A stretch of DNA of 52,881 nt, counting the filler, from Jimgerdemannia flammicorona (Eukaryota), in the NCBI GenBank assembly GCA_003990765.1. It is 2 parts of 2 records of this genome, joined end to end, with 100 filler letters (N's around TTAATTAATTAA, not from the genome) between each part and the next. Parts side by side here need not be neighbours in the genome. Positions count along the whole stretch, not along the records: positions 26,493 to 52,881 come from RBNJ01000733.1; 1 more part is not named here. One strand, given 5' to 3'. Shown piece by piece: positions 11,234-52,497 of this stretch. The position numbers and the translations under genes are program-made. Position 1 is the first letter of the stretch, and every line of letters begins with the position of its first letter. The notes beneath the pieces were generated by a model that saw nothing but the letters and a program-made list of their open reading frames with translations, ran no database searches and was not told the origin of the DNA.

Positions 11234-11850
11234 TTAAGGTCTGATTGACCTGGGCATGAGGCAAGCAACGTTATCATATTAGCTCAGATCGAGGTATGCG
11301 AACCACCAGACACAAAGAACACATAATCAAACCATATAGACCAGTACTCACAACAGATAAGGCAAGACCTCCCATCTCTCCCACACCTTCCCCGTGACGT
11401 ACGGGTCGCGCGCAACGTGGTCGTGAACCTCCTGTTCGGAATCGCTTTCGAAAATAATGCTGCTACCAATCATCTTGCCGCCCTCGTGCGAGTCGAGAAT
11501 CGCGCCAGCGCTGAGCACTAAACCTGCCTTCTTGTCCTCGGTGGCGAGGGCCAGATGAGCAGGGCGCACGGCGAGGCGCCGAGCGAGGGCCTCAGCGTCG
11601 GTATAATCATATGCGATGACCAGGAATTGTTGCTTCGAAGCTGGAATGGTGAGGTAGATCGGAGGAAAATTAAGTAGACGAGAGATGAGAAAAACGCTAT
11701 AGTCTTCGTTTTGCTGCCAATATGATTACATATTGCATGTCCTATTCGCATAGTGTAATACATACCAATGGCACTCGCCGTGAATGCTCTGGCTCCGGTA
11801 AATGTGTGCGGGAAAGAACTAGAGAGTGGACGCAGGAGTGTCGAGAGCAT
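11234..11850 (-). CDS. YCII-related domain protein with probable mitochondrial presequence
   Basis: MLSTLLRPLSSSFPHTFTGARAFTASAI | ..KQQFLVIAYDYTDAEALARRLAVRPAHL..SAGAILDSHEGGKMIGSSIIFESDSEQEVHDHVARDPYVTGKVWERWEVLPY; the R-x-x-H and DPY motifs are typical of YCII. The short last exon is inferred. Confidence 0.85.
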
Positions 11851-21183: not shown

Positions 21184-22231
21184 ATGTCGACAAACGACGT
21201 AGATCTGCCAGCTGGTTTGACCGGCGTTCCTGTCGAGGTGAGAAGCGCGCGCCATCTGTGCCGCTCTTCATTGTCACTGCTCTGTTTGTTGTTGTCATCT
21301 GCCCTGTACGCATCTGGTCCTCGAAATATATTGACGAACCCGGGACGCCACAAGCACTTGGTGTCCTATTTGTATGTATTAAAAAAGAAAGAAAGAAACC
21401 CCAATCTAACCAGATCTATAACACTAGGTCGAAAGACTTATTGGGCGGAAGTTCGTTCCCGGCGTAAGTTTGTTGTTTTTTGTCCAGATACTTGAATGAT
21501 CCTTTTTTGCCACTGATATGGCGTGTTTGCTCGCTACCATATTCGAGAGTCACTATTCAAGCATTATCGTCGCTTGCTGATGCAACCCATCTATCGTTCC
21601 AATCTTCCCACCTTATAATTAGGGCAATCTCTATTACTTGGTGAAATGGCGAGGATGGGAGGCGACGTATAATACTTGGGAGCCTCAGAGTCATATTCTT
21701 GACACTACTCTTATTGAGGACTTCAATGCGACATATATGAAGCAAGGCGGCGAACTCGCATTGTTGAAATCAGCGCCCAGGTTATATACCCGTGGTGGAC
21801 AGAAGATGGATCCCGAACGGGTTCGACCACCAGTCAACCCGAACTCCATTATCACAATAGATGACGATGAAGAGAAAGATGACGCAAAAAACATTGCGAA
21901 CGGTCATGAAAAGATACATGGGAAAAGGGTAAATGTCAATAGAACAAAATTGATATTAGCAACATTATTTGTAATCCACAAGGAAAACAAAATTTTTTGG
22001 ATTTTGAATTTTTCTCAAAAACAGGGTGAAAAATTGATGAGGATTATGACCGACTGACAAGCGTAGATACCTGTGATCAATTTCCTTTTTTTCTTCTGCA
22101 GAGGCTCTTTTCCAGAGCAAAAAATCAAAATCACTCAAGTAAAGCATCTGAGGCTGCCTCTATCATGGCAAGTCTCAGTAAGGTAAGTTGAGAGAACATT
22201 ATATTGGCATTGCCGAACAAAAAAGAAAAAG

Positions 22232-22265
<34 letters not shown>

Positions 22266-23517
22266 GAGGGAGATGATAAACAGTGTTTAGACTGATACTT
22301 GATCAAAGTACATACCAATTCGCTCACGCTTGTTCCGCGTTCTACAGGCGAGGAATCGTCCACGTGACCCATTGATGGAAATTGATCAGTCACAATCACC
22401 GTTGACTGTCACGCGATTCAATCGGACTAATCGACTCACCCAACCGAGCCGACCTTCATCAAGACAAGGCAAGACGCCTGGCATGCTTGCTTTCGAAAAT
22501 ATTCTCAAGAAGGTGCCTGGCCCATTAATCACTGTCGAAAATATTCACGACAATGAAGATCCACCACTGGATTTCGATTTTCTCAACGACTGGCTGCTAA
22601 CACCTGGAGTGGACGCAAACAACGAATTTTTAACTGGGTGTGACTGTGGACCGTCAGGTTGTGACCTTTCTAGGCCAAATAAGTGCGGTTGCGCCAACAT
22701 GAGCTCAAAAGAAGACGACGACGGTGATAAAATAATCATGTTTGCATACGACAAGCATGGTCGTGTGCTTGTCGATCGTTATACACCCATTTATGAGTGC
22801 AATTCACGATGCTCGTGTGGGCCTAGTTGTGGAAATCGAGTGGTGCAAAGAGGTAGGACCATTGAGATGAGGATATTCAAGGTATGGAGGGTTTTTATTT
22901 TAAAATCTCCAATTATATCATTCACTATCATGATGCATTCTTGATAACCGATTGAACCCCCATACATTTATCTGTTTCCTTAGACACCATCCAAAGGTTG
23001 GGGAGCGAAAGCAATGCACGATGTTCCACGTGGCACATACATCGACCAGTATCTTGGTGAGGTGATTACAACTGCAGAGGCAGAGCGGCGTGGAAAACGA
23101 TACGACAGGCAAGGTCGCACATGGCTTTTCGATCTGGATTTTGGAGCAGATGTAGATGATGAAGGCAGATTCAAGAATGAATACACCATCGACGCCTATC
23201 GGTGCGGCAGCGTCAGCCACTTCTTCAACCATTCCTGCGAGCCAAACCTCGAAGTACGTGTCGTCCTGGTAGAAACCAAGGATTTAAGACTGCACAGGAT
23301 TGCATTTTTCGCAAAGCGTGATATCAAAAGAGGGGAGGAACTCACGTTTGATTATTCGGGCGCGGATGGATCCGAAGAAGAATATGATAATGACGAGGAC
23401 GAGGACGACGACGAGGACGAGGACTGGGACGAAGATGGCACTACGAGAAGGAGCAGCTCACGAAAAGTGAGATGTATGTGCGGCAGCAGGAAATGTCGGA
23501 AATGGTTACACATCTAA
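21184..23517 (+). CDS. clr4: Histone H3K9 methyltransferase, Clr4/SUV39 type (chromodomain, pre-SET, SET, post-SET)
   Basis: Chromodomain VERLIGRK..YYLVKWRGWEATYNTWEP; pre-SET GCDC..C..CGC, IYECNSRCSCGPSCGNRVVQRG; SET KGWG, YLGEVIT, HFFNHSCEPN, ELTFDY; post-SET CMCGSRKCRKWL. The 5' exon structure and start are uncertain. Confidence 0.92.
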
Positions 23518-36914: not shown

Positions 36915-38096
36915 CACCCCTTTCTCTACTATCTTACCAGTTATAATGGTTTGGTAGGCAACCTTCCAAGTCCACTTTCTATAATTATTACCCCCTCTAC
37001 CTTGGGTTGGTTTGCTATACCTGTTGCAGGGCAGTGGGAGGGAGGCAATGGTGATGAGTTGCCTCTTTATTGGTGTCTGATCAGTGTCTTCTCCACTTTT
37101 TTGTAGTCTCTAGTGCCTTTGGCTGTATCTGGAGTACATCCATTTTGGTGCAGCACCTTCTTCCTTTTGCCATCACCAACAAGGTATTGTCTTGGTATAT
37201 CTCAGGCTATGTAGGAAGTCAGTTGACCTTGGGTATCAAGTGCTCAGTATAGGTTACCTGCAGGTCCTTGGTACCTATAGTGGAGTCCTCTGGCTTTGGC
37301 AAGCTTCCCAGTGAGTATGGTTCTGGTGTAGGTAACTGCTTTTTGGGTGTTGTCGGGATGGGAGGGGAGATGGCCATTACAGATAGGAGGAAGGGTGATA
37401 ATGGTGAACCAGTAGGATGCCAGGCTGGGGGCAGTTGTTGGGGCTGAGGTGGGTGCTACTTCAGTGGGGTCTTTTGATTGGTGTAGCATGGTTAGGTGGT
37501 AGGTGTCACTTTTGACTTCTTTTGGCGATTCATGGGGTTGGGCCCTGGTCATCTGGGGGGGTCAGGGGGTCCAAGGCTACCCATTTCAGGTGTCTTAGCT
37601 GCACTCAACTAGAACTGAGAGCTGATATGGCAATATGATTGAGGCCCATAGGCTTGAGTAGTGAGGTATTGGGGGTCTCCTCCTGCCTCATGTATAAGTT
37701 CTTTACTCACCTCAACTGGGAGAACTAGGCCCTACCCACTATGTTGTATTTTGATAAGAGTTTTTCTTTATCTATCATTCTCTTTGGAGTGGCAGAGGCT
37801 ATTCTATTCAGCTCAGATATGGTCTTATATATATATTGGGTTCTTGGGCATATGCTTTTGGTCATTGGCATATGGCTGGGTTTCTCCTGATGGTAGGGAG
37901 AGTATGGTGTGCAGAATGAGATATGGGCCAACATAGGCCCTACTGTACCTGATATGGTCAAGCTGTTGGACAATAGTTAGCTTAGGTTAATAGGGGGGCA
38001 GTACTTGATGGGTAGTGGAGGAGGGTTTTGGCCTATATATTCTAGGTTCTCTTCCAATAAAAATCTGTGGAACATTAAGTCTATTAAAAAAAAAAA
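36915..38096 (+). mobile_element. Poly(A)-tailed retroposed insertion (5'-truncated LINE, SINE-like element or retrocopy) inside copia gag
   Basis: 10-bp TSD CTGATAAATC (36905-36914) / CTAATAAATC (38097-38106); AATAAA at 38056-38061; A11 tail at 38086-38096. Removing the insert restores the gag frame IINNLIN|QVNSLRIPAE. Confidence 0.8.
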
Positions 38097-39938
38097 CTAA
38101 TAAATCAGGTAAATTCCCTAAGAATTCCAGCAGAGTATATTAGTAATAAAGACAAGATTCTGATTCTTATAAGAGATCTCTCTAAGGTATATAATATTTT
38201 AATAATAGCTATATATATATGAGAGTAGAAAACTTATAGACTACACTTATATAACAATGAGCCTCATCAATAAAGAGATGTATTAAGGAAATGGTAGTAA
38301 TGATGATGATGAGAAAAATATTCTACAGATTATACAAATGAGGTAAGAAGTATCAATAAGACCAAAAATATAAAAAATTTAATAAAAACTACCATTACTA
38401 TAGTAAGTATAAATATATACAAAATGACTGCTATTGTAAAAATAAGGAGAATGATAAAAATAAATATAAAAGTCAGTATTGATAATATGGGAGCAGTAGA
38501 AAGAAATATGATAACAAAGAGTAATATAATATAAATACTAGCAAAACTAATAAAAACCATATTTTATATATAAATAATATATGCTGTGCATTTGGAGAAA
38601 ATATCATTTAAATTTATATCTAAGCTATATACTTTTAAGCTGGTAAAAAGTAATAATATAAATAAAGTATATGTCAATATAGCTGATATCAATAATGTAT
38701 AGCTTATAAATTCAGATACTATATAATATATAATAGCCTACTAAGAATGATTCTCTATATATGAGTCTTTCAAGTATCTGATACTAATCAAATTAGATAA
38801 TAACAATATCATATATACTTAAGAAAGAGGAAATATCAGTATATATCTTTATAAAAATATCATAGAGCTTACTAATACTTTTAAGAATATACTATATATT
38901 CTAAAATAGGAAAGAATCTCTTTTCAATTAACAAAATAATGGCCTGAAGTAATAAAGAAATATATATATCTAATGAGAGCAATAGTATACAGTTTGAAGA
39001 ATGATAAGAAGATTATGATAGTATTGAATGAGATAATCTTTATAATCAATAGTATACCAAGTGATATAAAAATCTCTCTATATATAATAACTATATCTGA
39101 TATATCTAATATATAGTATCAATACTTAGAATATATAGAAAAATTGAGTCTAGAAAGAATGATTAGGAATAGATCTATACATATAAGAATTACTAGCAAT
39201 ATATTCTAATGATAACTTCTATAAATATTATATTTTAAATAAAGTATCCCAGTATCTATTTGGGAAACAGATGAAATATATATTCAGTATATTCAATTTA
39301 ATTTATTTAGATATATATAATCTAATATATACTACTTTCTATAAAGAGAAGAGATATTTTATTACATTTATCAATAATTATACATATAAAGTATATATAT
39401 ATTTCTTGTTGGTAAAGAGTGAAGTCTTGGAGAAATTCAAAGAGTTTAAAGTAATTGTGAAAAATAAAACAAGATGTAAAATATATACTATATACTCAGA
39501 CAAGAGATATAAATATATCAATAGTATATTTAAGTAGTATCTGAGAAAATATAGTATATACTATCAGATAACAGTGCTATATATATTATAGCAGAACTGT
39601 ATAGCTGAGCAATTTAACTATACAGCTATAGAAATATATAGTGAGTATAGATCAGATTATCATATTCTTATTAGGCTGAAGTCATCAATATAGTAGTATA
39701 TATATATAACTAATATATATCTCAAGTATTGAGTAAGGAATCTGACAATAATAATAAGTAATCAAGAAATAATAATAATCTTACTCCTGAGTAGAACAAA
39801 GTCTGATATATCACATCTATATATATTTGAATACAATATATATATTTCTAATAAGAATAATACTATTTAATACAAGTTTGAGCTAAAAGCTGGTAAGTAT
39901 GTATATATTTCTTAGATATTCTAGCAAGATATATATAT

Positions 39939-41385
39939 TGTAACAGACCGAAATGTACCACCCAAATTATAACTTAGCCAGATGATACGAACAATTAGCA
40001 TACTTACTCAGCATGATGTGACTTCTAGTGTATCATAGTTACCCATGCCTGCCACACTTATAATTAGCCAAGACACCAGATCAGGATTGTTTACCTGTAT
40101 CCTGAAGACACACTCATGTCCTGCAGACATACTCATGTTCTGTAGACACACCTATACCCAGAGGACATACCCAAGCATTACCAGAAGTAGTAAATCTATA
40201 GTTAGCCATATAGCAACCAGATAGCAACCAACTTGTATAAATTACCCCAGAGATAAGAGTGAATAAACCTCAGTCTGAATTGAAGTGCAAACCAAAGAAG
40301 CCTCTAAAGATTGAGCATTGGTCTCCTTATTCCACTTTGGTCTACTTTCTGATACAAAGCTGATTTTGCCAATAAGTTCAAGGAAGAACTTCACCACCTT
40401 TGGAATTATTGGTTTGCTTGCCAGATAAGCCTGAAGATTTCTGCCACCTAAAAGAAAGCTGCCTTGCTCAAGCTAGTTTCTGATGCAACTTTGCAGTGAT
40501 CTATTCACACAAACAAAGTCAGTCTTTGACACAACTTTGCCAAGAGACCCTTTCTAAGCTGCCATCTCATTTCCCAGTTAAAACCACCAATTATGGAGAA
40601 TCCACATCATCCACTGCCTTTTGAGTTATCCACTGTATTCCCAGTTGAAGCTGCCAATTTAGGAAGAATCTGCACCATCATATTCCCAGAAGAACCTGAT
40701 TTGGAAGAACCTGTGCCATCTGAGTTAATTTCCAGTTAAGCTGTTGTTTTCAAGAAGTCTGCCAATTCAGGAAGAATCTACATCATCCATCATTTCTAAG
40801 TTATCCACATTCCCAGAAGGACCCAATTTGTGCCACCCAAGTTATTATTCCCAGAAGAGCCCGATTTGTGCCATCCGAGTTATCCATTGTTCCCAGTGAG
40901 CCTGGTACAGAAGAAACCACACCAGTATAATTCCCAGTGAGTCAAATCAAGTTGTCTGCCAAATTTGCATAAGGAATATTGCCAAGATCATCCTGCATAA
41001 GAAATCCACTCATGCTATATGAGATTGTCATGCAGAAATCACATAAGGAGAACTGCTAAATTGCCAGACCATCACTCACAGAGATCATCATGCTACACAG
41101 AAATCACCTGCTACTCAAGAAGGAAACCACTCACACTATATACAAATTCTGCTATTCCCAGTTGATCAAAGAAGAAAAGACACAAATCACTGCTACACCT
41201 AGAGAACTATCTCAATAATGAAACCACTCACAGATATCCAGCTTGACTATTATACTACTAAATACCAAGGACCTCAGGAATCTTAGAACATTTTGTTGCT
41301 TTTTGACAAAGTAACTGGGGGCTCAAGCTAAACTTCATCAACCCCCAACCTTGTAATTTGCCTCCATTGAGCCAGGCATATTACA
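39939..41385 (+). repeat. Gypsy 5' LTR (~1447 bp) with internal 19-bp tandem units and TTCCCAG-anchored degenerate repeats
   Basis: tgtaacagaccgaaatg...gccaggcatattaca; collinear with 48803-50264. Confidence 0.95.
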
Positions 41386-41387
41386 TT

Positions 41388-41402
41388 TGGGGGCTCAACT
41401 AG
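41388..41402 (+). promoter_or_regulatory. Gypsy primer-binding site, tRNA-Pro type
   Basis: TGGGGGCTCAACTAG lies 2 nt after the LTR end; TGGGGGCTC is the start of the classic tRNA-Pro PBS. Confidence 0.75.
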
Positions 41403-41416
41403 AAAGATTTCAATCA

Positions 41417-43300
41417 ATGTGACTTTTCAGCTCACAAGAACCCACAGTCAAACTAGATACATTTGACACAATACCAACCTCTACCACTACAGGAGAATCA
41501 GTCATCACTAGCATTTGGACAGAAAAAGAAGTAATCACATCAAGACTTGCTAACTACCCAGTATCAGAAGGTTCCCAACCAGAAGGTAGTATAGCCTGAA
41601 ATCTCCAACCAGATTGACCAGACAATACAGGTAGCCCTGCTAGAGATTTCAGAGAACTTGTACAAGAACTAGAAGATCTTATCACATGAACCTGAGACTT
41701 TACAGCCAGACACCCCATACTAGTCCTGCTAATCTCACTAATAGAACATTTACCACAATCTCTTACAGAATTGGAAGTAGCCCCTACAAGAATACCTAGA
41801 CTTATCCCACTTCATCCAAGATCCAGAACACTATCCTCAAGATACCCAAGCATCCTCATCTCCAGTGACAGCTCAGAAAGCAAATTAGAATCAGAATCTG
41901 AACCTGAACCAGAATCAGAAAAAAGTGATGAAGAAATGGCCACTTCACTGCCAACCTTTGCAGGATACCCAGAGAAAGACCCCAGAGAATTCCTTGATGG
42001 AATTGAAGAAATTGCAGTCTTGAGGAATCTCTCAGATGAAAGAAAAATTGCCATCTACAAGGCTCAGCTTAGAGAACCAGCCAGAGGAATTTTCCATCAA
42101 ACAGCAAATAACCCAGACTCAGAACTGGCAAGACAGATGCAAGCAGCAATGTCCTATGAGCTAGAATATGAGGCCATGGTCCACTGGCTCATTGAAAAGT
42201 ATACAGAAAATGAAACCTATCACAAGGCTCAGGAATCCATCATGGGGATGAAGATGAATCTTAGAGAATCACCCAGAGCCTTCTTTACAAGAATCCAGAA
42301 GAGAATGCATGCTACTGGGTTCAATGCCACCAATTAGGACATCATCAGTCCAATAACCTTCATGAATGGAATTCCCCCAAACATTGCCCAGCATGTCCAC
42401 ACCCTAGGCATCAGAAGGTCTGAAGAGCAAGTAGATGCAGCCCAAGGATTCTTTGATGTCAGACAAGGAACTACCTAGAGTGATCATGACAGAAAAGAAG
42501 AGAAAAAAGACATCCTAGTCAAAGCCCTACAAGGACTCCTTTAAGGACAGGAAAGATCTGAAGAAAGAAGACCAGCCAAGAAAGGGAAGAAGGATAGAAG
42601 CAAAATCCAAGACCTTAGTTCCAAGTTAGACTGATTGGTTGGACAGATTGAAAAACTCACTATATATAAAAATCAGAGCTACCAAGACAATAGAGGATAC
42701 TCACTATAGAGGAGCCAAGGTTATCCACCCAGAGATAGCAAGGGTTATCAGCAAGAAGAAAGAAGATATCCTGTCTGAGATAGAGCCCAAGTCCAATGCT
42801 TCTACTGTGGACAATTTGGACACTATGCCACTGAATGTGACAATAAAAGAAGTAACCAAAGGGACTCAGAACCACCAAACTGAAGGAATGACACCCAGTA
42901 CAAGAAGACTGAAGCCCATCCTATTGAAAATTTCGAGGAAGCAAGCAACAGTGAAGACTACAGTGACCTAGACTTGTACCCTACTAAGGTTACCACCCGA
43001 AAGACAGTCTACCTAGCAGAAAAAAGGAAGAGACCTGTAGGAAGGCCATCCAGGAACATCAGCAGAAGAATCATCCAAGAAGAAGATGAAGAACATGAGG
43101 AGGAACAAGTAGAAATACCTCTCCGAACCCCCTCACCTTTTGTTTCTGAGACAAATGAGTTACCACCAAAGATGAAGAAATGGAACAAGAAGAATGAGAA
43201 CCTGCTGCTCCAAAGTCTAAGAAGAAGTACACTCACAAGACCATACCTAGAGATATTTACAATGAAGCCTGGCAGAAGATTCAAGAAGCCAAAATAGAAG
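41417..43300 (+). pseudogene. Gypsy gag with long N-terminal extension, capsid-like region and CCHC zinc knuckle
   Basis: ATG at 41417 is in frame with LPTFAGYPEKDPREFLDGIE..LREPAR..ESPRAFFTRI and with CFYCGQFGHYATEC (42797-42838); interrupted by TGA/TAG/TAA stops. Confidence 0.85.
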
Positions 43301-43439
43301 TCCCCCTTCTGCAGTTCCTGTAACTGACACCAGCTAGAGTCTGAAACAAATTGCTAAGAACCACCAGGTCTAGCACTGGCTGAGTCCCAATCCCACAGCA
43401 AGAACCAGTTCCCATCCCTGTTCAGGCAGCTAAGAGACA

Positions 43440-43810
43440 TATCAGCACCTATCTACATAGAGATATTAGAGGGCAAAAGGTGAAGATCCTCATAGACACA
43501 GGAGCAGCTATCTGTGTCATTGCCAAATGATTCTTAGACACCCTCCAATGGCCCATTGATGGACCATCCAACCTCAGAATTATAGTAGCAGATGGAGCCT
43601 GAACTCAACCCCTTGGAGAAGTATGAAATATCACTATCTCCCTTGGACACATTCAGTTCTCCATCCCTAAAGCTGTTGTTACTGAAGCTGTCACCTATGA
43701 CATGATTCTTGGTACCAACTGGATGAAGGAAATGAATGCAGTTGTTGATATTGGCCAACAAGTACTCAAGTTTGACTACTGAGGCAAGAAGTACAGAGTT
43801 AAGGTAACCA
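43440..43810 (+). pseudogene. Gypsy aspartic protease
   Basis: RGQKVKILIDTGAAICVI ... YDMILGTNWM. Confidence 0.9.
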
Positions 43811-45109
43811 GCTATGAGCAATCAAAGAAGAAGAAGAAGGTCACCATTCAGGAAGAATATGCCTGCAGCAAGGAGTCTACTATAGAAGAGGAAGAAGAAT
43901 CTGAAGACGGAAATGATCCCAGACTCAATCCCCAAATTAATCTGATAGATGACAGACCAGAAGATAATGTGTGGGCCAAGAACACCATCCCTATCACCAT
44001 TGGAGCTATTGTAGGAGAAGCCAAAGGATGCCCTATCTGCCTTAAGAGACATAAGTGTCCTGAGCACTCCTCCAAGATCATGGAAACAAGGAAATCGCCT
44101 GACACAGCCTGCCCAGAGTGCAGGAAGAAGAAGAAGAAATGCAGACATGTTTCAGAAACACCTGCAACCAAAGCTGCAGAAGTACAAGCAATTTGGAGTC
44201 AAGAATCATCTGAGGAAGAAGAAACTTCTGATCAAGAAGTCTCTGAACAAGAAGCACCTGAAGAAGAAGAAGTCTCTGAACTCATTCCCTGGGATGATTC
44301 TTGTTGGACACCACCCAAGGACAATGACCCTTGGAATACAGAAGAAGGACCCAGTATAATTACCATTATCCCAAAGAAAGAAACTCACCAAGAGAAGGCT
44401 TTTTGGCTTGGAAGGTGTCTACACCAAATGATCTTTCACTCTCCCCAAAACTATTGCTATCAGTGTCATCTGTTGGATCAACAAGAAAGACAGAGACCCC
44501 AGAGACCAGAACCCCCAACTATACTTGCACAGTCAACCACTTTTCAAGAAGTTACCACAAGGTTATAAAGTCAATTTAGAGGACAAGGCTTCTTCACCCA
44601 AACAGAAATATATCTCTTGTCTACCCTTCCCCCAACTTATGATCAAGATGGGTATCGATTCCCAAGACAACAAGAGATCAACAGCTGGGAACATCATTTC
44701 TGAGCAATGGGATATTGTAACCATGGGAGACACCCTGACTGCTGAGACTGCAGACATCAGAAGATTCACCTCAGTCATGATATTGCAGTCCATACTTTAA
44801 AGAGAGGAGACAATAGAGACCAGATCTGAAAAAGCCAAACCAGGAAGCCAGGAAGAAGAGTCCTTAAGATCTATGATTTGGGAGAAGACATCCTAGCTCT
44901 CATTAGGCATACAACTTGCCAAGAATGGGCAGAAGATGCTACCAACTTCATAGAAGCCCTAGACCCTACAGGAAGAAGAGGAATCAATTATCTCCAAGAC
45001 CCCTCTACTGGAGCCAGATAGCCACACCTCAATCTTAGAGCTTGGAGGCTCTCTACTAGTGGAGCCTCAGCCCTAGGACAGCCTGAACTTAGCAAGGATA
45101 TTACCCAGT

Positions 45110-45500
45110 ATGCCCTGCTATATCCCAAGGCCAAACCCCTGACCAAAGCCCACTCAGATGATATAGAGTATGATCTTCACAGTCTGGAGGATGAATCTAT
45201 CAAACCTGGAAAAACCTTCATAATCAGAACTGGGTTAGCCATGCAGGATCTTATATCCAACTGACCTCAAGGTCTGGACTTGCCAGACAAGGAATAACTG
45301 TGGAAGGAGAAACTATTGACCCAGGATATACAGGCGAAATCAAGGTCATCCTGCATAACAGCAGCACAGAATAGCACTGAATCATTAGAGGACAGAAGAT
45401 TGCCCAAGCAGTCTTCATGAAAGTCAAGACTCCCCAGTTACAAGAAGTCTCTGAACTAACTGAAGGAACAAGATAAGTCAAGAGATTTGGAAGTTCAGAC
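45110..45500 (+). pseudogene. dUTPase domain within the gypsy pol
   Basis: PKAKPLTKAHSDDIEYDLHS (motif I), IRTGLA, SRSGLA (II), ETIDPGYTGEIKVIL (III), GQKIAQAVF (IV), R*VKRFGSS (V). Confidence 0.9.
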
Positions 45501-45899
45501 AGAAAGGAAGTACACCTCCTTCAAGTCAACCATCTTAAGAGAAATGTTCCCCAGCAAGTGTATTGGCAACCAGTCAGACTGCACAAGAATCTTATCCTGG
45601 AGCCTGGAGAACAAATAACCTTTGAAATCTTTGCACCATCTGTCCTCAGAAACCTTTTCTTTGAACCCAAAGAAGATATTTCCCATCTGGATATAGAGGG
45701 ACACATATTCTCTGACAAGATGAACCCAGTACACTCCCAAGCAACCAATCAAAGTTGAGAAACCATCATCTTGCTGAAAGGAACCATCATAGGACATCTG
45801 GTGCCTTTTCTCAACTGAACTCATAGAGAAGTTTATGAACTAAACCTATCAGGAAATGGCAAAAGATCCCAGAAGAAAGGAAAGGCCCCTCTGTGACCC

Positions 45900-48306
45900 A
45901 GGAGACAGTAAAACCTTCCACCAATATTGGAGAAGAATTGACACCTCAACAACAACAACAACTAATAGAACTTCTCAACAAATATCAAGATATCTTCACC
46001 ACTAATTATGGAAATCTGTCATACAATCCATCATATCACCACAGCATAAATACAGGAAATGCAACACTCATCTGGCAGAAACCCTATAGAATACTCCATC
46101 ACTTGAAAACATTCAAAAGAGAGTACATTCAAGAACTCTTAGACAATAGAGTCATCTGACCCTCTACCAGCCCTTGGGCCAGCCCTATACTTATTGTACC
46201 AAAGAAAGGAGGATGGAGACTCTGCATGGACTATAGAAAACTCAATTCAGTCACTGAAAAGGATTCCTATCCTTTGCCCCGAATTGATGATTTCTGGATC
46301 AGTTACAAGATGCCAGATACTTCAGCAGTATGGACCTCTTCACAGGATTCCATGAGATCTCCATGGACCCCAAGGACATTCAAAAGACAGTCTTTCTTGC
46401 TCTAGGAAAACTGTTTGAATACCTCTGAATGCCCTTTGGACTCTGCAATGTACTCCCCACCTTTCAGAGGATGATGAATTCAGTCTATGTCCCCTTGATC
46501 CACTACTGCCTGATTGTATATAGATGATTCCAACATCTATTCAGCAAATTTTGAAGAACACCTGCACTACCTAGAGGAATTCATCAAGCTCACCTACAAG
46601 AATCACTTGAGATTGAATGCAAAGAAATGCTACTTTGGGAAACAGAAACTTGAATTCCTAGGATTTATGGTTTCAAAAGAAGGAACTCATACAGATCCAA
46701 AGAAAACCAAGAAGATCAACAATTGGCCAGTACCCAAGACTCTGAAGGAAACACTATCATTCCTGATGCTAGTATTCTACTACAGAAGGTTTATCAAGGA
46801 TTTTGCCCAAATTGCTACCCCAATTAGAATCCTTCTCAAGAAAGGAGTGCTATTCAAATGGACAGAATCACAGGAAAAAGCTTTCAGAGAACTCAAGAAC
46901 CGCATGACTACAATACCAATCCTTGTATGCCCCAATCTATAGAAGCCATTCATCTTGTATACAGATGCTTCTAAAGATGGCCTCAGAGCAGTTCTGTCCC
47001 AAGAAGGATCTAATCAACAGCACTATGTGATAGCTTATGCAAGCAGAGCTACTAACTAGCAGCATATGAACTATGACCATATAGCCCTCAAATGGCTATT
47101 CAACTACAAGGAATCCGCCAGAATCCTAGCCTGCTGGATCCTTATCCTTTAGGATTACAAAATCACCATTATTCACAAAGGAGAGAAAGCCCACAACAAT
47201 GTTAATGTACTTTTCTGCCAGCCCCAATGAACCAGAAGAAGGGTGTCCTGAGGAACTACACCCTAAAGGAAGCTCCTCAGACCATCAAGGAATAAGAAGA
47301 TCTCATCCAAAAAGAACATCAGAAAACCCACTAAGGACAGACAAGCATAGAAGATAAGATTCGAAAACAATATCAACATTGGTTCCACCTCAGAACCCAA
47401 GTCCGAGACATTATTCAGAAATGTGACATCTGGCAGAAGTATCAAGGAAAGAAGAACTATCAAGCCCCTTTGCAACTGATTCTCTCACCCACTCACATCT
47501 TTCAAAGATGAGAAGTAGATGTAATTGGACCTCTATCAGTTACACCAAGAAAAAACAAATATATCCTTGTATTTGTAGAACATCTGACCAAGTGGCCTGA
47601 GGCTTTCCCAATGGAAATTGTAGATGCTCTAACCATTGTAGGCCTTCTCCATAGACTCACACTCAGATATGGACACCCAGAAGAACTCATCTCTGACTGA
47701 GGCACAGAATTCATCAACAATATAATCACAAGTTATACTTGAATTCACAAGATACATCTCAAACAGACTACATCATACTATTTCCAGACCAATGGCATGA
47801 CAGAAAGGATGAACCAGACCATCAAGAAAGGACTTACCTGAGTCAATTCTACCAATTGAGACCTCTGCTTACCTGAGATCCTATGGGAAATTCAGAACAC
47901 CCCTGTCACCTCAACCAAACAAAAGCTATTTGAAATGATATTTGCCAAGAAAATAAGAACTACTGACCATAAGAACCTTGGAGATCTTCTAAAGAAGGCA
48001 GAACAGTTACATAATCAGGCCCGAGGTCAGATTATCAAAGCCCAAGAAAGACAAAAGAAGTATTATAACCAAAGACAGAAGGATCAGGAGATCAAGATTG
48101 GAGATCAAGTACTAGTTTGGAGAAGTATGATTGAAACAAACTTTGCCACCAAATTGGAGCCCAAATGGAAAGGACCTTATCTTGTACATAACATCAGAGG
48201 AACCAGCATCTATTTAAGAAGCATCAATAGATGAACTCTGAGAACACCAGTATATATCAATCACCTCAAGATATACCTCTTCTCACATCATGAATCAGAA
48301 AATTGA
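45900..48306 (+). pseudogene. Gypsy reverse transcriptase, RNase H and integrase (GPY/F, no chromodomain)
   Basis: [95 protein letters not shown]; multiple stops and frameshifts. Confidence 0.95.
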
Positions 48307-48802
48307 CAACTACCTCCAAACTCTTGTTCTTAGTTCCCTCTAAGCCCTATCAGTTCCCCTACCTCAGTTCTAGGAACCCAATGGAATATATCTTCAGAAA
48401 ATCCAAGTTCATCAAGAGAACCTCACTTTGGCCAAGAGGCTACTCCAGGTCCACTAGCTGCAGGCATACTATATAATTGGAGAACAATTGCAGAATCTTC
48501 CTCTTCCAGACCTAGCCTATGTCCATAACACCACTGGCCTGAACAGAAGAAATATTACTGCTGCAGACAGACTATATACAATATATAAACAAAATTCTTC
48601 TGCCTTAATCCAGGCCCAGTTCTCCCTGAATAACCTCTAAAGGATGACACTGCCCATCTACCTCAGCATCATTCACCAAGTGGAGATCCTATTTTTCAAG
48701 GAAGAAGAAGAGCCCCTGGAATGGAGTGACCATAGCTCAGATGATGATGATGGAACAGATATAGATGCAGAAGCTGCTTATGCCTATTGGGATGATGACT
48801 GA
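48290..48802 (+). pseudogene. Extra ORF (ORF3, 170 codons) between integrase and the 3' LTR
   Basis: Single frame from ATG 48290 to TGA 48800-48802 with only four internal TAA/TAG stops, consistent with mutated Gln or Trp codons; acidic tail EEEEPLEWSDHSSDDDDGTDIDAEAAYAYWDDD*. Confidence 0.7.
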
Positions 48803-50264
48803 TGTAACAGACTGAAATATACCACCCAAATTATAACTTAGCCAGATGATGTAAACAATTAGCATACTTACTCAGCATGATGTGACTTCTAGTGTATTAT
48901 AGTTACCCATGCCTGCCACACTTATAATTAGCCAAGACACCAGATCAGAATTGTTTATCTGTATCCTGAAGACATACTCATATCCTGCAGACACACTTAT
49001 GTTCTGTGGACACACTTATGTCCTGCAGACACACTTATGTCCTGTGGATATACCTGTACTCAGAGGATACACCCAAGCATTACCAGAAGTAGTAAATCTA
49101 TAGTTAGCCACATAGCAACCAGATAGCAACCAACTTATATAAATTACACCAGAGACAAGAGTAAATAAACCTCAGTCTGAATTGAAGTGCAAACCAAAGA
49201 AGTCTCTAAAGATTGAGCATTGGTCCCCTTATTCCACTCTGGATACAAAGCTGATTTTGCCACTAAGTTCAAGGAAGAACTTCACCACCTTTGGAATTAT
49301 TGGTTTGCTTGCCAGATAAGCCTGAAGATTTCTGCCACCTAAAAGAAAGCTGCCTTGCTCAAGCCAGTTTCTGATGCAACTTCACAGTGACCCATTTATG
49401 CAAATGAAGCCAGTCTTTGATGCAACTTTGCCAAGAGACTCTTTCCAAGCTACCATCCTGTTTCCCAGTTAAAACTGCCAATTTCGGAGAATCCACATCA
49501 TCCACTGCCTTTTGAGTTATCTGCTGTATTCCCAGTTGAAGCTGCTGATTCAGGAAGAATCTGTGTCATTGTATTCTCAGAAGAACCTAATTTGGAAGAA
49601 CCCATACTATCCAAGTTAATTCCCAGTTAAGCTGTTATTTTCAAGAAGTCCACTGATTCAGGAAGAATCCGCATTATCTGCCATTTCCAAGTTATCTACA
49701 TTTCCAGAAGGACCTGATTCGTGCCACCCAAGTTATTATTCTCATAAGGGCCCGATTTGCACCATCCGAGTTATCTGTTGTTCTCAGTAAGCCCAGTATA
49801 GAAGAAACCACACCAGTATAATTCCCAGTAAGCCAAATTGAGTTGTCCACCAAATCCGCATAAGGAATATTGCCAAGATCATTCTGCATAAGAAATCCAC
49901 TCATGCTACATGAGATCATCATGCAGAAATTGCATAAGGAGAACTGCTAAATTACCAGACCATCATGTACAGAGATTGTCATGCTATACAGAAATCACCT
50001 GCTACTCAAGAAGAAAACTGCTTGCACTACATATAAATTCTACCATTCCCAGTTGATCAAGAAGGAAAGACACAAATCAACGCTATATCTAGAGAACCAT
50101 CCCAATAAGGAAACCGCTTACAGATATCCAGCTTGACTATTATACCACTAAACACCAAGGACCTCAGGAATCTTATACTTTTTGACAAAGTAACTGGGGG
50201 CTCAAGCCAAACTTCATCAACTCTCAACCTTGCAATTTGTCTCTATTGAGTCAGGCACATTATA
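48803..50264 (+). repeat. Gypsy 3' LTR (~1462 bp)
   Basis: tgtaacagactgaaata...gtcaggcacattata (terminal CA mutated to TA). Confidence 0.95.
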
Positions 50265-52497
50265 ATATTAACTCTGAGAACTATATAAATATTATACATA
50301 TAGTAATATTATATAATATATACTTTAATAAAAAAGGAAATTAGAAACTCTATATAGAAGTATCTATTGAAACCTCTACTTCAGTATCTATATCTCAGTA
50401 AGTTATATAATATCTGATATCAACCTATTTAATAAAGTAAAATTATTTTCAACTACTATATATATCTGAGCTAGAATTATCTAAGCTAAGGATAACAGAG
50501 ATTAATAATAATAAGACTGATAATAATGATGATAAAAGGTTTATTAAGAGCATAGAAAGCCAAAGTAATAGCCCAAGAATGAGACTCATTTTAATTTAAA
50601 GAGTTATTGGAATATGCTAAAGATATTTCAATATAAAGACTATATGAGCTATATTGAGATATATAAATACATATTTACTACAATTTCTAGTGAGCCAAAT
50701 ATATATGATAAAGTAATAACTTTCTCTAATAATAAGAAATAGAAGTAAGTCATAAATAAATAGTATAATTTACTCATTGAGAATGATATATATGATCTAG
50801 TATTCTTTTCAACTAATTGATAAGTTATAGAATCATATTGAGTCTATAAAATTAAGCACAAAAATAATAGAAGTATAGAATAATATAAAGCTCATTTTAT
50901 TGTTAAGGATTATTTACAAGATTACAGTATTGACCATAATGAGATATTCTTACTAGTATTCAAGCTTACTTTAATGAGAATACTTCTTATAATCAGTACT
51001 ATATATAATTTAGAAATTCATCAGATAGATGTAAAGATAGCTTTTCTTAATAATAATATTAATACAGAGCTATATATTTACTAGCTACAAAGATATAAGC
51101 AGAATAATAATCTCATATATAAACTATATAAAGAATTATATAGTATCAAGTAAGCAGCTTATTTGTAGAATAGAAAAATTAATAAATATCTTCTTAATAA
51201 TAACTTTATATATTACAAAGTAGATAACTATATATATGTTCAATACTATATTGATAGAGTAGTATTTATATATATATAAGTAGATGATATTATTATTATT
51301 ATAATAAAAACAAACTTAATAAAGTAAAAGAAGCCCTGCATAAGGAATTCAAGATAACTGATATGGGTGATATATCCTTTCTTTTGAGAATATTCATTAT
51401 ATGTAATAGGAGTATATATACTATATATCTATATAATTCTTAAATGATTCAATATGAGCAAATGCAAGCTAGTAAACATCTCTATAAAAACTTTAATAAA
51501 GTTAAAGAAGTCTAATACTATGCTAGAGAAAACTATACCAATATTCCCTATTGATATGTAAGTAGTCAGTTCTCTTATATATCTTATACTAGAAATGAGG
51601 TCCAATATTTCATATACTGTAAATAAGATAGTACACTACTTATTATACTATATGCTTACCTTTGATTGATTGAGCAGAAGTAATAGTAATAATAGTAATA
51701 ATAAGAATGATATACAACTATCTAGATATATGATGCTAATTGGATAAGAGACTTAGATAATTGTCAATCTATAACTAGGTACTTCTTTTAGTTAAATAAT
51801 AAAGGAGTCATTTTATGGCAAATATATATGCAGAATTTAATAATAATATCATCTATATAAGCAGAGTATCAAGTATTATCTACAGTAACAAAAAAAAGGC
51901 ATTTGGCTATACTAGCTACTAAAGAAACTTAGATTTAATCAGAAATAGCACTCTATACTTATCTATCAGAATAATCAGTCTATGATTGCTATAGCAAAGA
52001 ACTTTATTTATTATAGTAGAACTAAACACATTGATATATAATACTATTATATAAGAGAATATAGAGAACAGAACTATATACTTAGAATACATCCCCATGA
52101 AGCATATGATCACAGATTTACTTACTAAAGCCCTTCTGGAATCAAAATTCAAGTAATATAATAAAGAAATGAGTCTTATAGTAAACTATATACCAGTAAT
52201 GGAACTATATGCCAGTAATAGATAATTATGGGACATTTTCATAATGATGAAAAGGAAGCAGAAAAACAATGCAATATATCTTTCTACATCTCTCTCTTCA
52301 AGTATTATGTTATAGTTATTCATCAGTTGTTCTTCTTCTACATTTGAGATTTTATACCATCAGGACTTATCTATATCCTACATTTTCACTATGGTTTCTT
52401 ATGTTTTAAGCATTAGTAGATAGCATTCTTTTAGTATATTTGCAGTCATTTTGCAGTTGTTACTTAGTTGCATTGCATTCTTGCATATTATCTCGTT

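What the first reader, a model, noticed from the sequence alone, without database searches (positions are those of the whole stretch)
48290..48802. Hidden third ORF downstream of integrase, ending exactly at the 3' LTR
Not in the ORF track. Reading through four TAA/TAG stops gives 170 aa with no frameshift: MNQKIDNYLQTLVLSSL*ALSVPLPQF*EPNGIYLQKIQVHQENLTLAKRLLQVH*LQAYYIIGEQLQNLPLPDLAYVHNTTGLNRRNITAADRLYTIYKQNSSALIQAQFSLNNL*RMTLPIYLSIIHQVEILFFKEEEEPLEWSDHSSDDDDGTDIDAEAAYAYWDDD*. Its ATG overlaps the integrase end, suggesting coupled translation. It occupies the env position but has no signal peptide or TM; it looks helical with an acidic-aromatic tail like an activation domain or DNA mimic. It is a candidate undescribed retrotransposon accessory protein (transactivator or silencing suppressor).
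Basis: partly seen in the sequence, partly recalled or inferred. Interest (0 to 1): 0.75.

Follow-up and report, generated by a model that had tools for sequence, protein, structure and literature searches.

The report
Extra retrotransposon gene, possible self-activator
A dead jumping gene here preserves a small extra gene of no known family; it was kept by selection, seems to have its own promoter, and is always paired with a matching set of short repeats in the element's main promoter, which suggests, without proving, that it switches on its own element.

Summary
The reading frame is real. It is a 170-codon accessory gene of a high-copy Ty3/gypsy LTR family. The four stops are minority decay states (3–5 of 30 copies). 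Subfamilies show purifying selection (A–B transversion ratio 0.20, CI 0.07–0.43), and 39 of 40 integrase-picked loci carry the gene.

Corrections: 'ends exactly at the LTR' is a private 39-bp deletion. It is the fourth frame, because integrase is itself a separate ORF. Coupled translation is only a rival: a TATA-like box lies 69–83 nt upstream and the start context is strong, pointing to an internal promoter.

The gene and the upstream U3 form a divergent cassette on near-identical integrases. Gene type matched U3 repeat type in 97 of 98 typed copies, with no mismatch.

No Pfam, PHROG, PDB or Foldseek match. An HTH-like helix pair and kinship to ORFs in two other lineages are weakly supported.

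Best reading (about 45%): a foamy-Tas-like or VANC-like, sequence-specific activator of its own LTR. Linkage alone could explain the pairing. This scan already noted similar ORFs and the split integrase elsewhere in this genome.

The parts
39939..41385 (+). 5' LTR (about 1.45 kb); preceded by ATAT, which recurs after the 3' LTR (possible 4-bp target duplication, weak in AT-rich flanks)
   Evidence: (1422 aligned columns, 145 differences, 138 transitions)
41388..41405 (+). Primer-binding-site-like tract (likeness to a tRNA-Pro site is recalled, not tested)
   Evidence: sequence
41420..45909 (+). Frame 1: gag, aspartic protease, unknown stretch, dUTPase-like region (dUTPase label recalled from motifs); broken in this copy
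   Evidence: 1507 codons free of fixed stops over 16 copies; PF13975 E 1.5e-11
45836..47230 (+). Frame 2 (-1): RT and RNase H; slippery-like heptamer near 45851 in sibling copies; 90-nt deletion near 47075 in this copy
   Evidence: PF00078 E 7.3e-7, PF17919 E 8.3e-4
47227..48306 (+). Frame 3: integrase as its own ORF, its ATG overlapping the RNase H stop (ATGA)
   Evidence: 55 ATGA and 9 ATAA of 65 anchored genome loci; PF18697 E 5e-4
48211..48218 (+). TATA-like box inside the integrase coding sequence; candidate internal promoter, 79 nt before the ATG
48290..48802 (+). Accessory ORF, 170 codons, subfamily A, four decay stops at 48341, 48371, 48455, 48638; predicted long helix 34-69, short-helix/turn/helix 74-101, acidic tail 136-170
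48799..48802 (+). Junction of a private 39-bp deletion that removed the hairpin and G-rich tract found before the LTR in sibling copies
48803..50264 (+). 3' LTR
48970..49045 (+). U3 array of four 19-nt subfamily-A repeat units (three units at 40106-40161 in the 5' LTR)
49138..49169 (+). LTR TATA-like box (49138) and AATAAA (49164), in a block shared by subfamilies A-D

Best explanation
Shown: this is a decayed copy of a protein-coding accessory gene carried by nearly all copies of this Ty3/gypsy family, under purifying selection while the family was active (about 0.93). Shown: the gene and the first ~250 nt of U3 form one divergent cassette between a shared integrase and a shared TATA block, and each gene type travels with its own tandem, mostly palindromic repeat just upstream of the LTR TATA box. 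Inferred (about 0.6): the gene is read from a short mRNA started at a TATA box inside the integrase gene. Inferred (about 0.45 overall): the protein binds its own subfamily's U3 repeats through the helix pair at 74-101 and, through the acidic tail, activates the LTR or keeps it free of silencing. It would work like foamy-virus Tas or plant VANC without being a member of either family.
For: Selection: A-B net dS 1.04, dN 0.12; transversions at second positions over four-fold sites A-B 0.20 (0.07-0.43), B-C 0.43 (0.23-0.82); shifted forward frames give no such deficit. Presence: 39 of 40 integrase-picked loci and 2 of 2 metagenome contigs, after integrase. Cassette: A-B identity 0.92 in integrase, 0.72-0.73 in the ORF, 0.61-0.64 in U3, 0.93 at the TATA block. 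Pairing: 97 of 98 typed loci concordant, 1 without a scorable repeat, 0 discordant; L110 has a B gene and B repeats with an A-like stretch between them. Promoter: TATTTAAG or TATATAAG 69-83 nt upstream in 113 of 119 anchored loci, the only TATA-like box shared along 7 kb (16 of 16 copies), made of rare codons (TTA 13% of Leu, ATA 14% of Ile); A at -3 in 118 of 119. Candidate relatives E and G also have TATA boxes 67-87 nt upstream (19 of 20, 9 of 10), and G is followed by a 35-nt-period array. Fold: two models from separate alignments give the same long helix, short helix, 4-residue turn, 16-residue helix; SopB, VirB, ParB and sigma-4 DNA-binding domains align to residues 56-111 at Z 3.7-4.4, rmsd 2.5-3.1.
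Against: No binding or expression data. Gene and U3 are adjacent, so linkage alone predicts pairing. Models are low-confidence (pLDDT 55 and 41); the HTH rows are below the tool's trust level and the ParB group did not recur with the G model. Profile tests against DUF3102 and DUF1016_N gave probabilities of 3% or less. A and B are 88% identical over codons 81-100 yet have different repeats. The helix pair is only mildly basic (5 K/R, 2 D/E). A-C selection is not significant (0.62, CI 0.34-1.28). Tail codons have few silent changes (3, 1, 1 of 15-18), so their conservation may be a nucleic-acid signal. Lineage E has the candidate relative but no U3 array; palindrome counts are also raised in lineage F, which shows no such ORF. 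Kinship to E/G is weak (hhalign probability 19-29%), and A against E alone is at shuffle level. The TATTTAA pattern was chosen after seeing the site.
Confidence: 0.45

Rival explanations
1. An RNA-level helper: it exports or protects genomic RNA (like CERV or Rev), or promotes the frameshift and stop-restart events that this element needs to make RT and its stand-alone integrase (like caulimovirus TAV). The U3 pairing would be linkage.
For: Pol is split by a -1 step and an AUGA overlap. A conserved hairpin follows the ORF. CERV is a retrotransposon precedent (PMC10309623, abstract); TAV-dependent reinitiation is described in PMC10275272 (passages).
Against: Lineage E carries the candidate relative with a chromodomain-type pol; hits of the same Pfam search have open frames up to 1181 codons, though its junctions were not mapped. 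Does not explain why gene and U3 diverge together while pol is shared. No RNA-binding family matched.
Confidence: 0.2
2. A general counter-defence protein that binds a host silencing, methylation or deamination factor through its acidic tail, with no sequence specificity.
For: The host clearly attacks these elements: CpG o/e 0.06 in the element against 1.06 in host genes. Acidic tails are kept in A-D, E and G. The ORF diverges faster than integrase.
Against: No match to a known mimic. A non-specific suppressor gives no reason for type-specific repeat arrays.
Confidence: 0.17
3. On expression only: the gene is translated from full-length RNA by termination-reinitiation at the integrase stop, not from an internal promoter.
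For: Stop overlaps the start position in 14 of 16 B, 29 of 30 C and 2 of 34 A loci, across different upstream indels, and in L173. Integrase uses the same overlap and both frames begin M-x-Q-R. AUGA reinitiation is documented in viruses (PMC10275272, passages).
Against: 32 of 34 A loci place the stop 14 nt downstream. Strong -3 context here against C/T at the integrase start. It would need a frameshift and two restarts in series. No shared upstream structure (z -0.02 and 0.38 in two copies, -2.2 in a third).
Confidence: 0.3
4. An env-like or particle-structural protein.
For: It sits in the env position (PMC7264820, sections read).
Against: No transmembrane stretch, 170 aa, no match in BFVD or PDB at E <= 0.001.
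Confidence: 0.06
5. Not a gene: an open stretch by chance.
For: The window copy has four stops; no RNA evidence.
Against: Frame-specific absence of fixed stops, transversion-based selection signal, fixed start and stop, length differences between subfamilies in whole codons (504, 510, 513 nt), open homologs at 57-75% identity in metagenomes.
Confidence: 0.03

Closest known systems
Sense additional ORFs between pol and the 3' LTR (aORF-3S; Vicient and Casacuberta, PMC7264820; abstract, first third of text and section 7 read)
   Same: Family-wide extra ORF, same sense, between pol and the 3' LTR, function unproven.
   Different: The sense examples reviewed are env-like, some with transmembrane domains or spliced mRNA; this one has no transmembrane stretch, has a candidate internal TATA box, and pairs with U3 arrays.
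Foamy virus Tas/Bel1 (PMC517496, passages; abstracts)
   Same: Accessory gene made from an internal promoter, acidic C-terminal activation domain, DNA targets in the LTR: the layout proposed here.
   Different: No sequence or fold match found. Binding and activation are shown for Tas, only inferred here. No subfamily-specific site can lie at the internal promoter, since A and B share that sequence.
VANC proteins of Arabidopsis VANDAL transposons (PMC5735166, abstract and Discussion read)
   Same: Element-encoded protein that varies together with tandem-repeat targets between related elements, in a methylating host.
   Different: VANDALs are DNA transposons (recalled); no homology found; demethylation untested here.
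CERV of C. elegans Cer1 (PMC10309623, abstract only)
   Same: Novel non-env regulatory protein of an LTR retrotransposon.
   Different: CERV comes from a spliced mRNA and exports genomic RNA; no match found in the libraries searched, and no direct comparison was made.
ParB/SopB/VirB-type HTH domains, DUF3102, DUF1016_N
   Same: Long helix, an IG..L motif, then a short helix, turn and long helix; weak structural rows and weak Atlas rows.
   Different: No significant sequence, profile or structure score.

Membership tests
Ty3/gypsy LTR retrotransposon (host element) | Paired LTRs with TG...CA ends | tested here: met
   the 3' LTR ends in TA, consistent with decay
Ty3/gypsy LTR retrotransposon (host element) | Domain order protease, RT, RNase H, integrase | tested here: met
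   Pfam
Ty3/gypsy LTR retrotransposon (host element) | Integrase within a single Pol polyprotein | tested here: not met
   integrase is a separate frame in 64 of 65 anchored loci; the element is an atypical member
Ty3/gypsy LTR retrotransposon (host element) | RT phylogeny places it in a named clade | not tested
   no RT tree was built
Sense additional ORF (aORF-3S) | [quoted passage not shown] | tested here: met
   39 of 40 integrase-picked loci
Env-like ORF | Transmembrane domain | tested here: not met
   max hydropathy 0.96 over 19 residues
Foamy virus Tas/Bel1 | Sequence or fold homology | tested here: inconclusive
   no Pfam hit, no BFVD hit from a low-confidence model
Foamy virus Tas/Bel1 | Internal promoter | tested here: inconclusive
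   conserved TATA-like box and start context; no transcript data
Foamy virus Tas/Bel1 | Direct binding and activation of LTR elements | not testable with these tools
   needs EMSA and reporter assays
VANC anti-silencing proteins | Protein varies together with tandem-repeat targets | tested here: inconclusive
   97 of 98 concordant, but linkage is not excluded and the repeats are not shown to be targets
VANC anti-silencing proteins | Sequence-specific demethylation in trans | not testable with these tools
   needs expression plus bisulfite sequencing
ParB-like HTH / DUF3102 / DUF1016_N | Significant profile or structure match | tested here: inconclusive
   Z 3.7-4.4; hhalign probability 0.2-3.3%

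The most novel reading that the evidence does not exclude
A family of LTR-retrotransposon-encoded, sequence-specific transcription or anti-silencing factors: each is made from its own internal promoter, swaps between elements as a gene-plus-U3 cassette, co-evolves with palindromic arrays in its LTR, and has moved between positions (after integrase, after a spacer, inside the LTR) in unrelated gypsy lineages.
Probability: 0.3. Interest if true: 0.85.

Novelty: new variant of a known kind. Interest (0 to 1): 0.6.

Why it matters
Extra ORFs of LTR retrotransposons are common and mostly without a known job (PMC7264820). Here the gene comes with candidate targets: four natural gene types, each with its own repeat, and naturally open copies of three types are on record (A and B in the genome, C-like and D-like proteins in metagenomes). 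That makes a cognate-versus-non-cognate binding test direct. If it holds, a simple retrotransposon has reached the regulatory layout of complex retroviruses and a VANC-like answer to host methylation. If it fails, this is one more conserved accessory ORF of unknown function.

Tried and rejected
No family found: Pfam on the window ORF and on 25 alignment members (best E 0.012, scattered); PHROGs on 17 members; PDB sequences (best E 0.98); Atlas, whole protein and residues 40-135 (top scores 0.90-0.91, mixed families). Foldseek PDB and BFVD: 0 matches at E <= 0.001. VIA-align: best Z 5.3 and 5.7, none at 8 or more. No relative confirmed among 317 candidate stretches in prokaryote genomes or 187 in viral contigs. 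My DUF1016_N and DUF3102 hunches (recalled motifs) were not supported. RNA runs: no RNA holder listed, so no reads were laid. NG86 omega alone was set aside as a test because within-subfamily values were also 0.19-0.28 and A-C dS saturated. The count of open B copies (13 of 15) is inflated, since I picked those loci largely for having no stops. The generic palindrome count did not separate lineages with and without the ORF. Whether the protein forms dimers remains open. Literature: searches found no description of this ORF family or of an AUGA-split integrase; the library lacks most subscription papers and no supplements were read.

Full report
Setting. The finding lies in a 10.3-kb LTR element, 39939-50264. 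Its LTRs differ at 145 of 1422 aligned columns, 138 by transitions; CpG o/e is 0.06 in the element and 1.06 in host genes. Pfam gives protease, RT, RNase H-like and integrase C-terminal hits in Ty3/gypsy order. The host taxon was not tested.

Observation. The translation is exact. A DNA search of the genome gave 1811 first-look candidates, 40 scored, 30 fetched including the window copy. No codon of the frame is a stop in half the copies, against 5-12 in each other frame; the window's four stops occur in 3, 5, 3 and 4 of 30 copies. All 29 others have a 39-nt spacer before the LTR that folds as a hairpin (z -1.9 to -4.0 in three copies). The abutment on the LTR is therefore a private deletion.

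Subfamilies and selection. Protein searches gave subfamilies A (window), B and C and a rarer D. On 78 of 80 loci (two dropped: one frameshifted, one truncated), A-B net dS is 1.04 and dN 0.12. Because transition bias lowers NG86 omega even within subfamilies (0.19-0.28), I used transversions: second-position over four-fold rate is 0.20 (0.07-0.43) for A-B, 0.43 (0.23-0.82) for B-C and 0.62 (0.34-1.28, not significant) for A-C. Shifted forward frames show no deficit; two reverse frames mirror it but are closed by fixed stops. Singleton changes are spread over the three codon positions, as decay predicts. Of 40 loci picked by integrase alone, 39 carry the ORF. Database homologs are 22 unnamed metagenome proteins among 2318 candidates, and 5 among 1.84 billion representatives. 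Both metagenome contigs recovered place it right after integrase.

Element layout. Over 16 of 20 fetched long stretches, frames free of fixed stops are 1507 codons (gag to dUTPase-like region), 495 codons (RT-RNase H, -1) and 374 codons (integrase, -1). Integrase starts at an ATGA overlap with the RNase H stop in 55 of 65 anchored loci, ATAA in 9. The finding is thus the fourth frame. Earlier scan notes report the split integrase too.

Expression. The integrase stop overlaps the start position in 14 of 16 B, 29 of 30 C and 2 of 34 A loci; in 32 of 34 A loci it lies 14 nt downstream. A TATA-like box at window 48211 stands 69-83 nt before the start in 113 of 119 anchored loci; it is the only such box shared along the 7-kb internal region, uses codons that are rare in integrase, and is followed by no other ATG in 114 of 119; the -3 base is A in 118 of 119, whereas the integrase start has C or T there. 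The anchor pattern included the box, so this count is not blind. I favour an internal promoter (0.6) over reinitiation (0.3); both may operate. No RNA holder was listed.

Cassette and repeats. A and B share integrase (0.92 identity, equal to within-subfamily), the spacer (0.95) and the LTR TATA block (0.93), but differ in the ORF (0.72-0.73) and the upstream U3 (0.61-0.64). U3 holds tandem arrays just before the TATA block: period 19 in A, 18 in B and C, one or two units in D. Of 120 loci, 98 could be typed: 49 A/A, 26 B/B, 20 C/C, 2 D/D, one C without a scorable unit, none discordant. In 5 B loci the first 70 nt of U3 scored closer to A; by eye only L110 is clearly A-like, over about 150 nt, and it keeps B repeats. 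This is the pattern VANC proteins show with their targets (PMC5735166, abstract and Discussion), but adjacency alone could produce it.

Protein. The model has pLDDT 55, helices 2-18, 34-69, 74-81, 86-101, 103-134 and a disordered acidic tail. Nothing matches significantly. SopB, VirB, ParB and sigma-4 domains align to residues 56-111 at Z 3.7-4.4, below trust. Direct profile tests against 26 DUF3102 and 7 DUF1016_N sequences were inconclusive. The final codons are conserved at silent sites, so the tail is weaker evidence than it looks.

Other lineages. Prompted by earlier notes, I fetched 40 loci from an integrase zinc-finger search. Lineage E (23 loci; chromodomain-type, recalled motif) has a ~270-codon ORF after pol in the 20 loci where it could be extracted, with a TATA box 67-74 nt upstream in 19. 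Lineage G has a ~265-codon ORF inside the LTR, TATA 87 nt upstream in 9 of 10, then a 35-nt-period array. E and G are homologous (100%). Against the window's family, G scores 28.8 (E 0.0012, probability 19%; 60 shuffles max 18.2), E alone is at shuffle level, and the enlarged E/G set reaches 29%. The G-type model repeats the helix spacing. The region was chosen after a search, so kinship is plausible, not proven. Lineage F (14 loci) shows neither ORF nor array; E has no array.

Verdict. A real accessory gene (about 0.93), filed under sense additional ORFs (PMC7264820) but not env-like. It most likely works like foamy Tas (PMC517496, passages) or VANC (about 0.45), and is not shown to be a member of either. 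Searches found no published description. Earlier notes of this scan describe such ORFs in this genome; in the short notes I saw, none mentions the gene-to-repeat pairing or an internal TATA box.

Noticed in passing
window 47227-47230; L001-L080; L173, L174: Integrase is a stand-alone ORF whose ATG overlaps the RNase H stop, with a weak start context; how it reaches the particle is unexplained. Already noted by this scan on other DNA.
   Followed up: yes
window 45836-45909: The -1 step falls between the dUTPase-like region and RT, with a GGGAAAC/T slippery-like heptamer in several sibling copies and in L174, not between gag and protease.
   Followed up: partly
window 43783-45150: About 450 codons of unknown function between protease and the dUTPase-like region, with Cys/His clusters and acidic runs; no Pfam hit for 43783-44565.
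   Followed up: no
window 49250-50100; loci L002-L080: The LTR after the TATA block is a ~1.1-kb mosaic of short shared blocks in varying order between copies of all subfamilies.
   Followed up: no
window 38000-39938 and 50265-52200: The element is nested in a very AT-rich (22-26% GC) decayed element whose frames recall Copia integrase and RT (recalled motifs, not tested).
   Followed up: no
L161-L172: Lineage G carries a ~265-codon ORF wholly inside its LTR, followed by a palindrome-containing array; 6394 first-look candidates in the genome.
   Followed up: partly
L110: A B-type gene and B-type repeats flank an A-like first ~150 nt of U3: a possible recombinant or intermediate.
   Followed up: partly
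window 21623-23517: Host gene with chromodomain-like, pre-SET-like and SET-like exons (a Clr4/Suv39-type H3K9 methyltransferase by recalled motifs).
   Followed up: no
window 11420-11722 (-): Small host gene with 40-59% identity to bacterial proteins in 24 loci.
   Followed up: no
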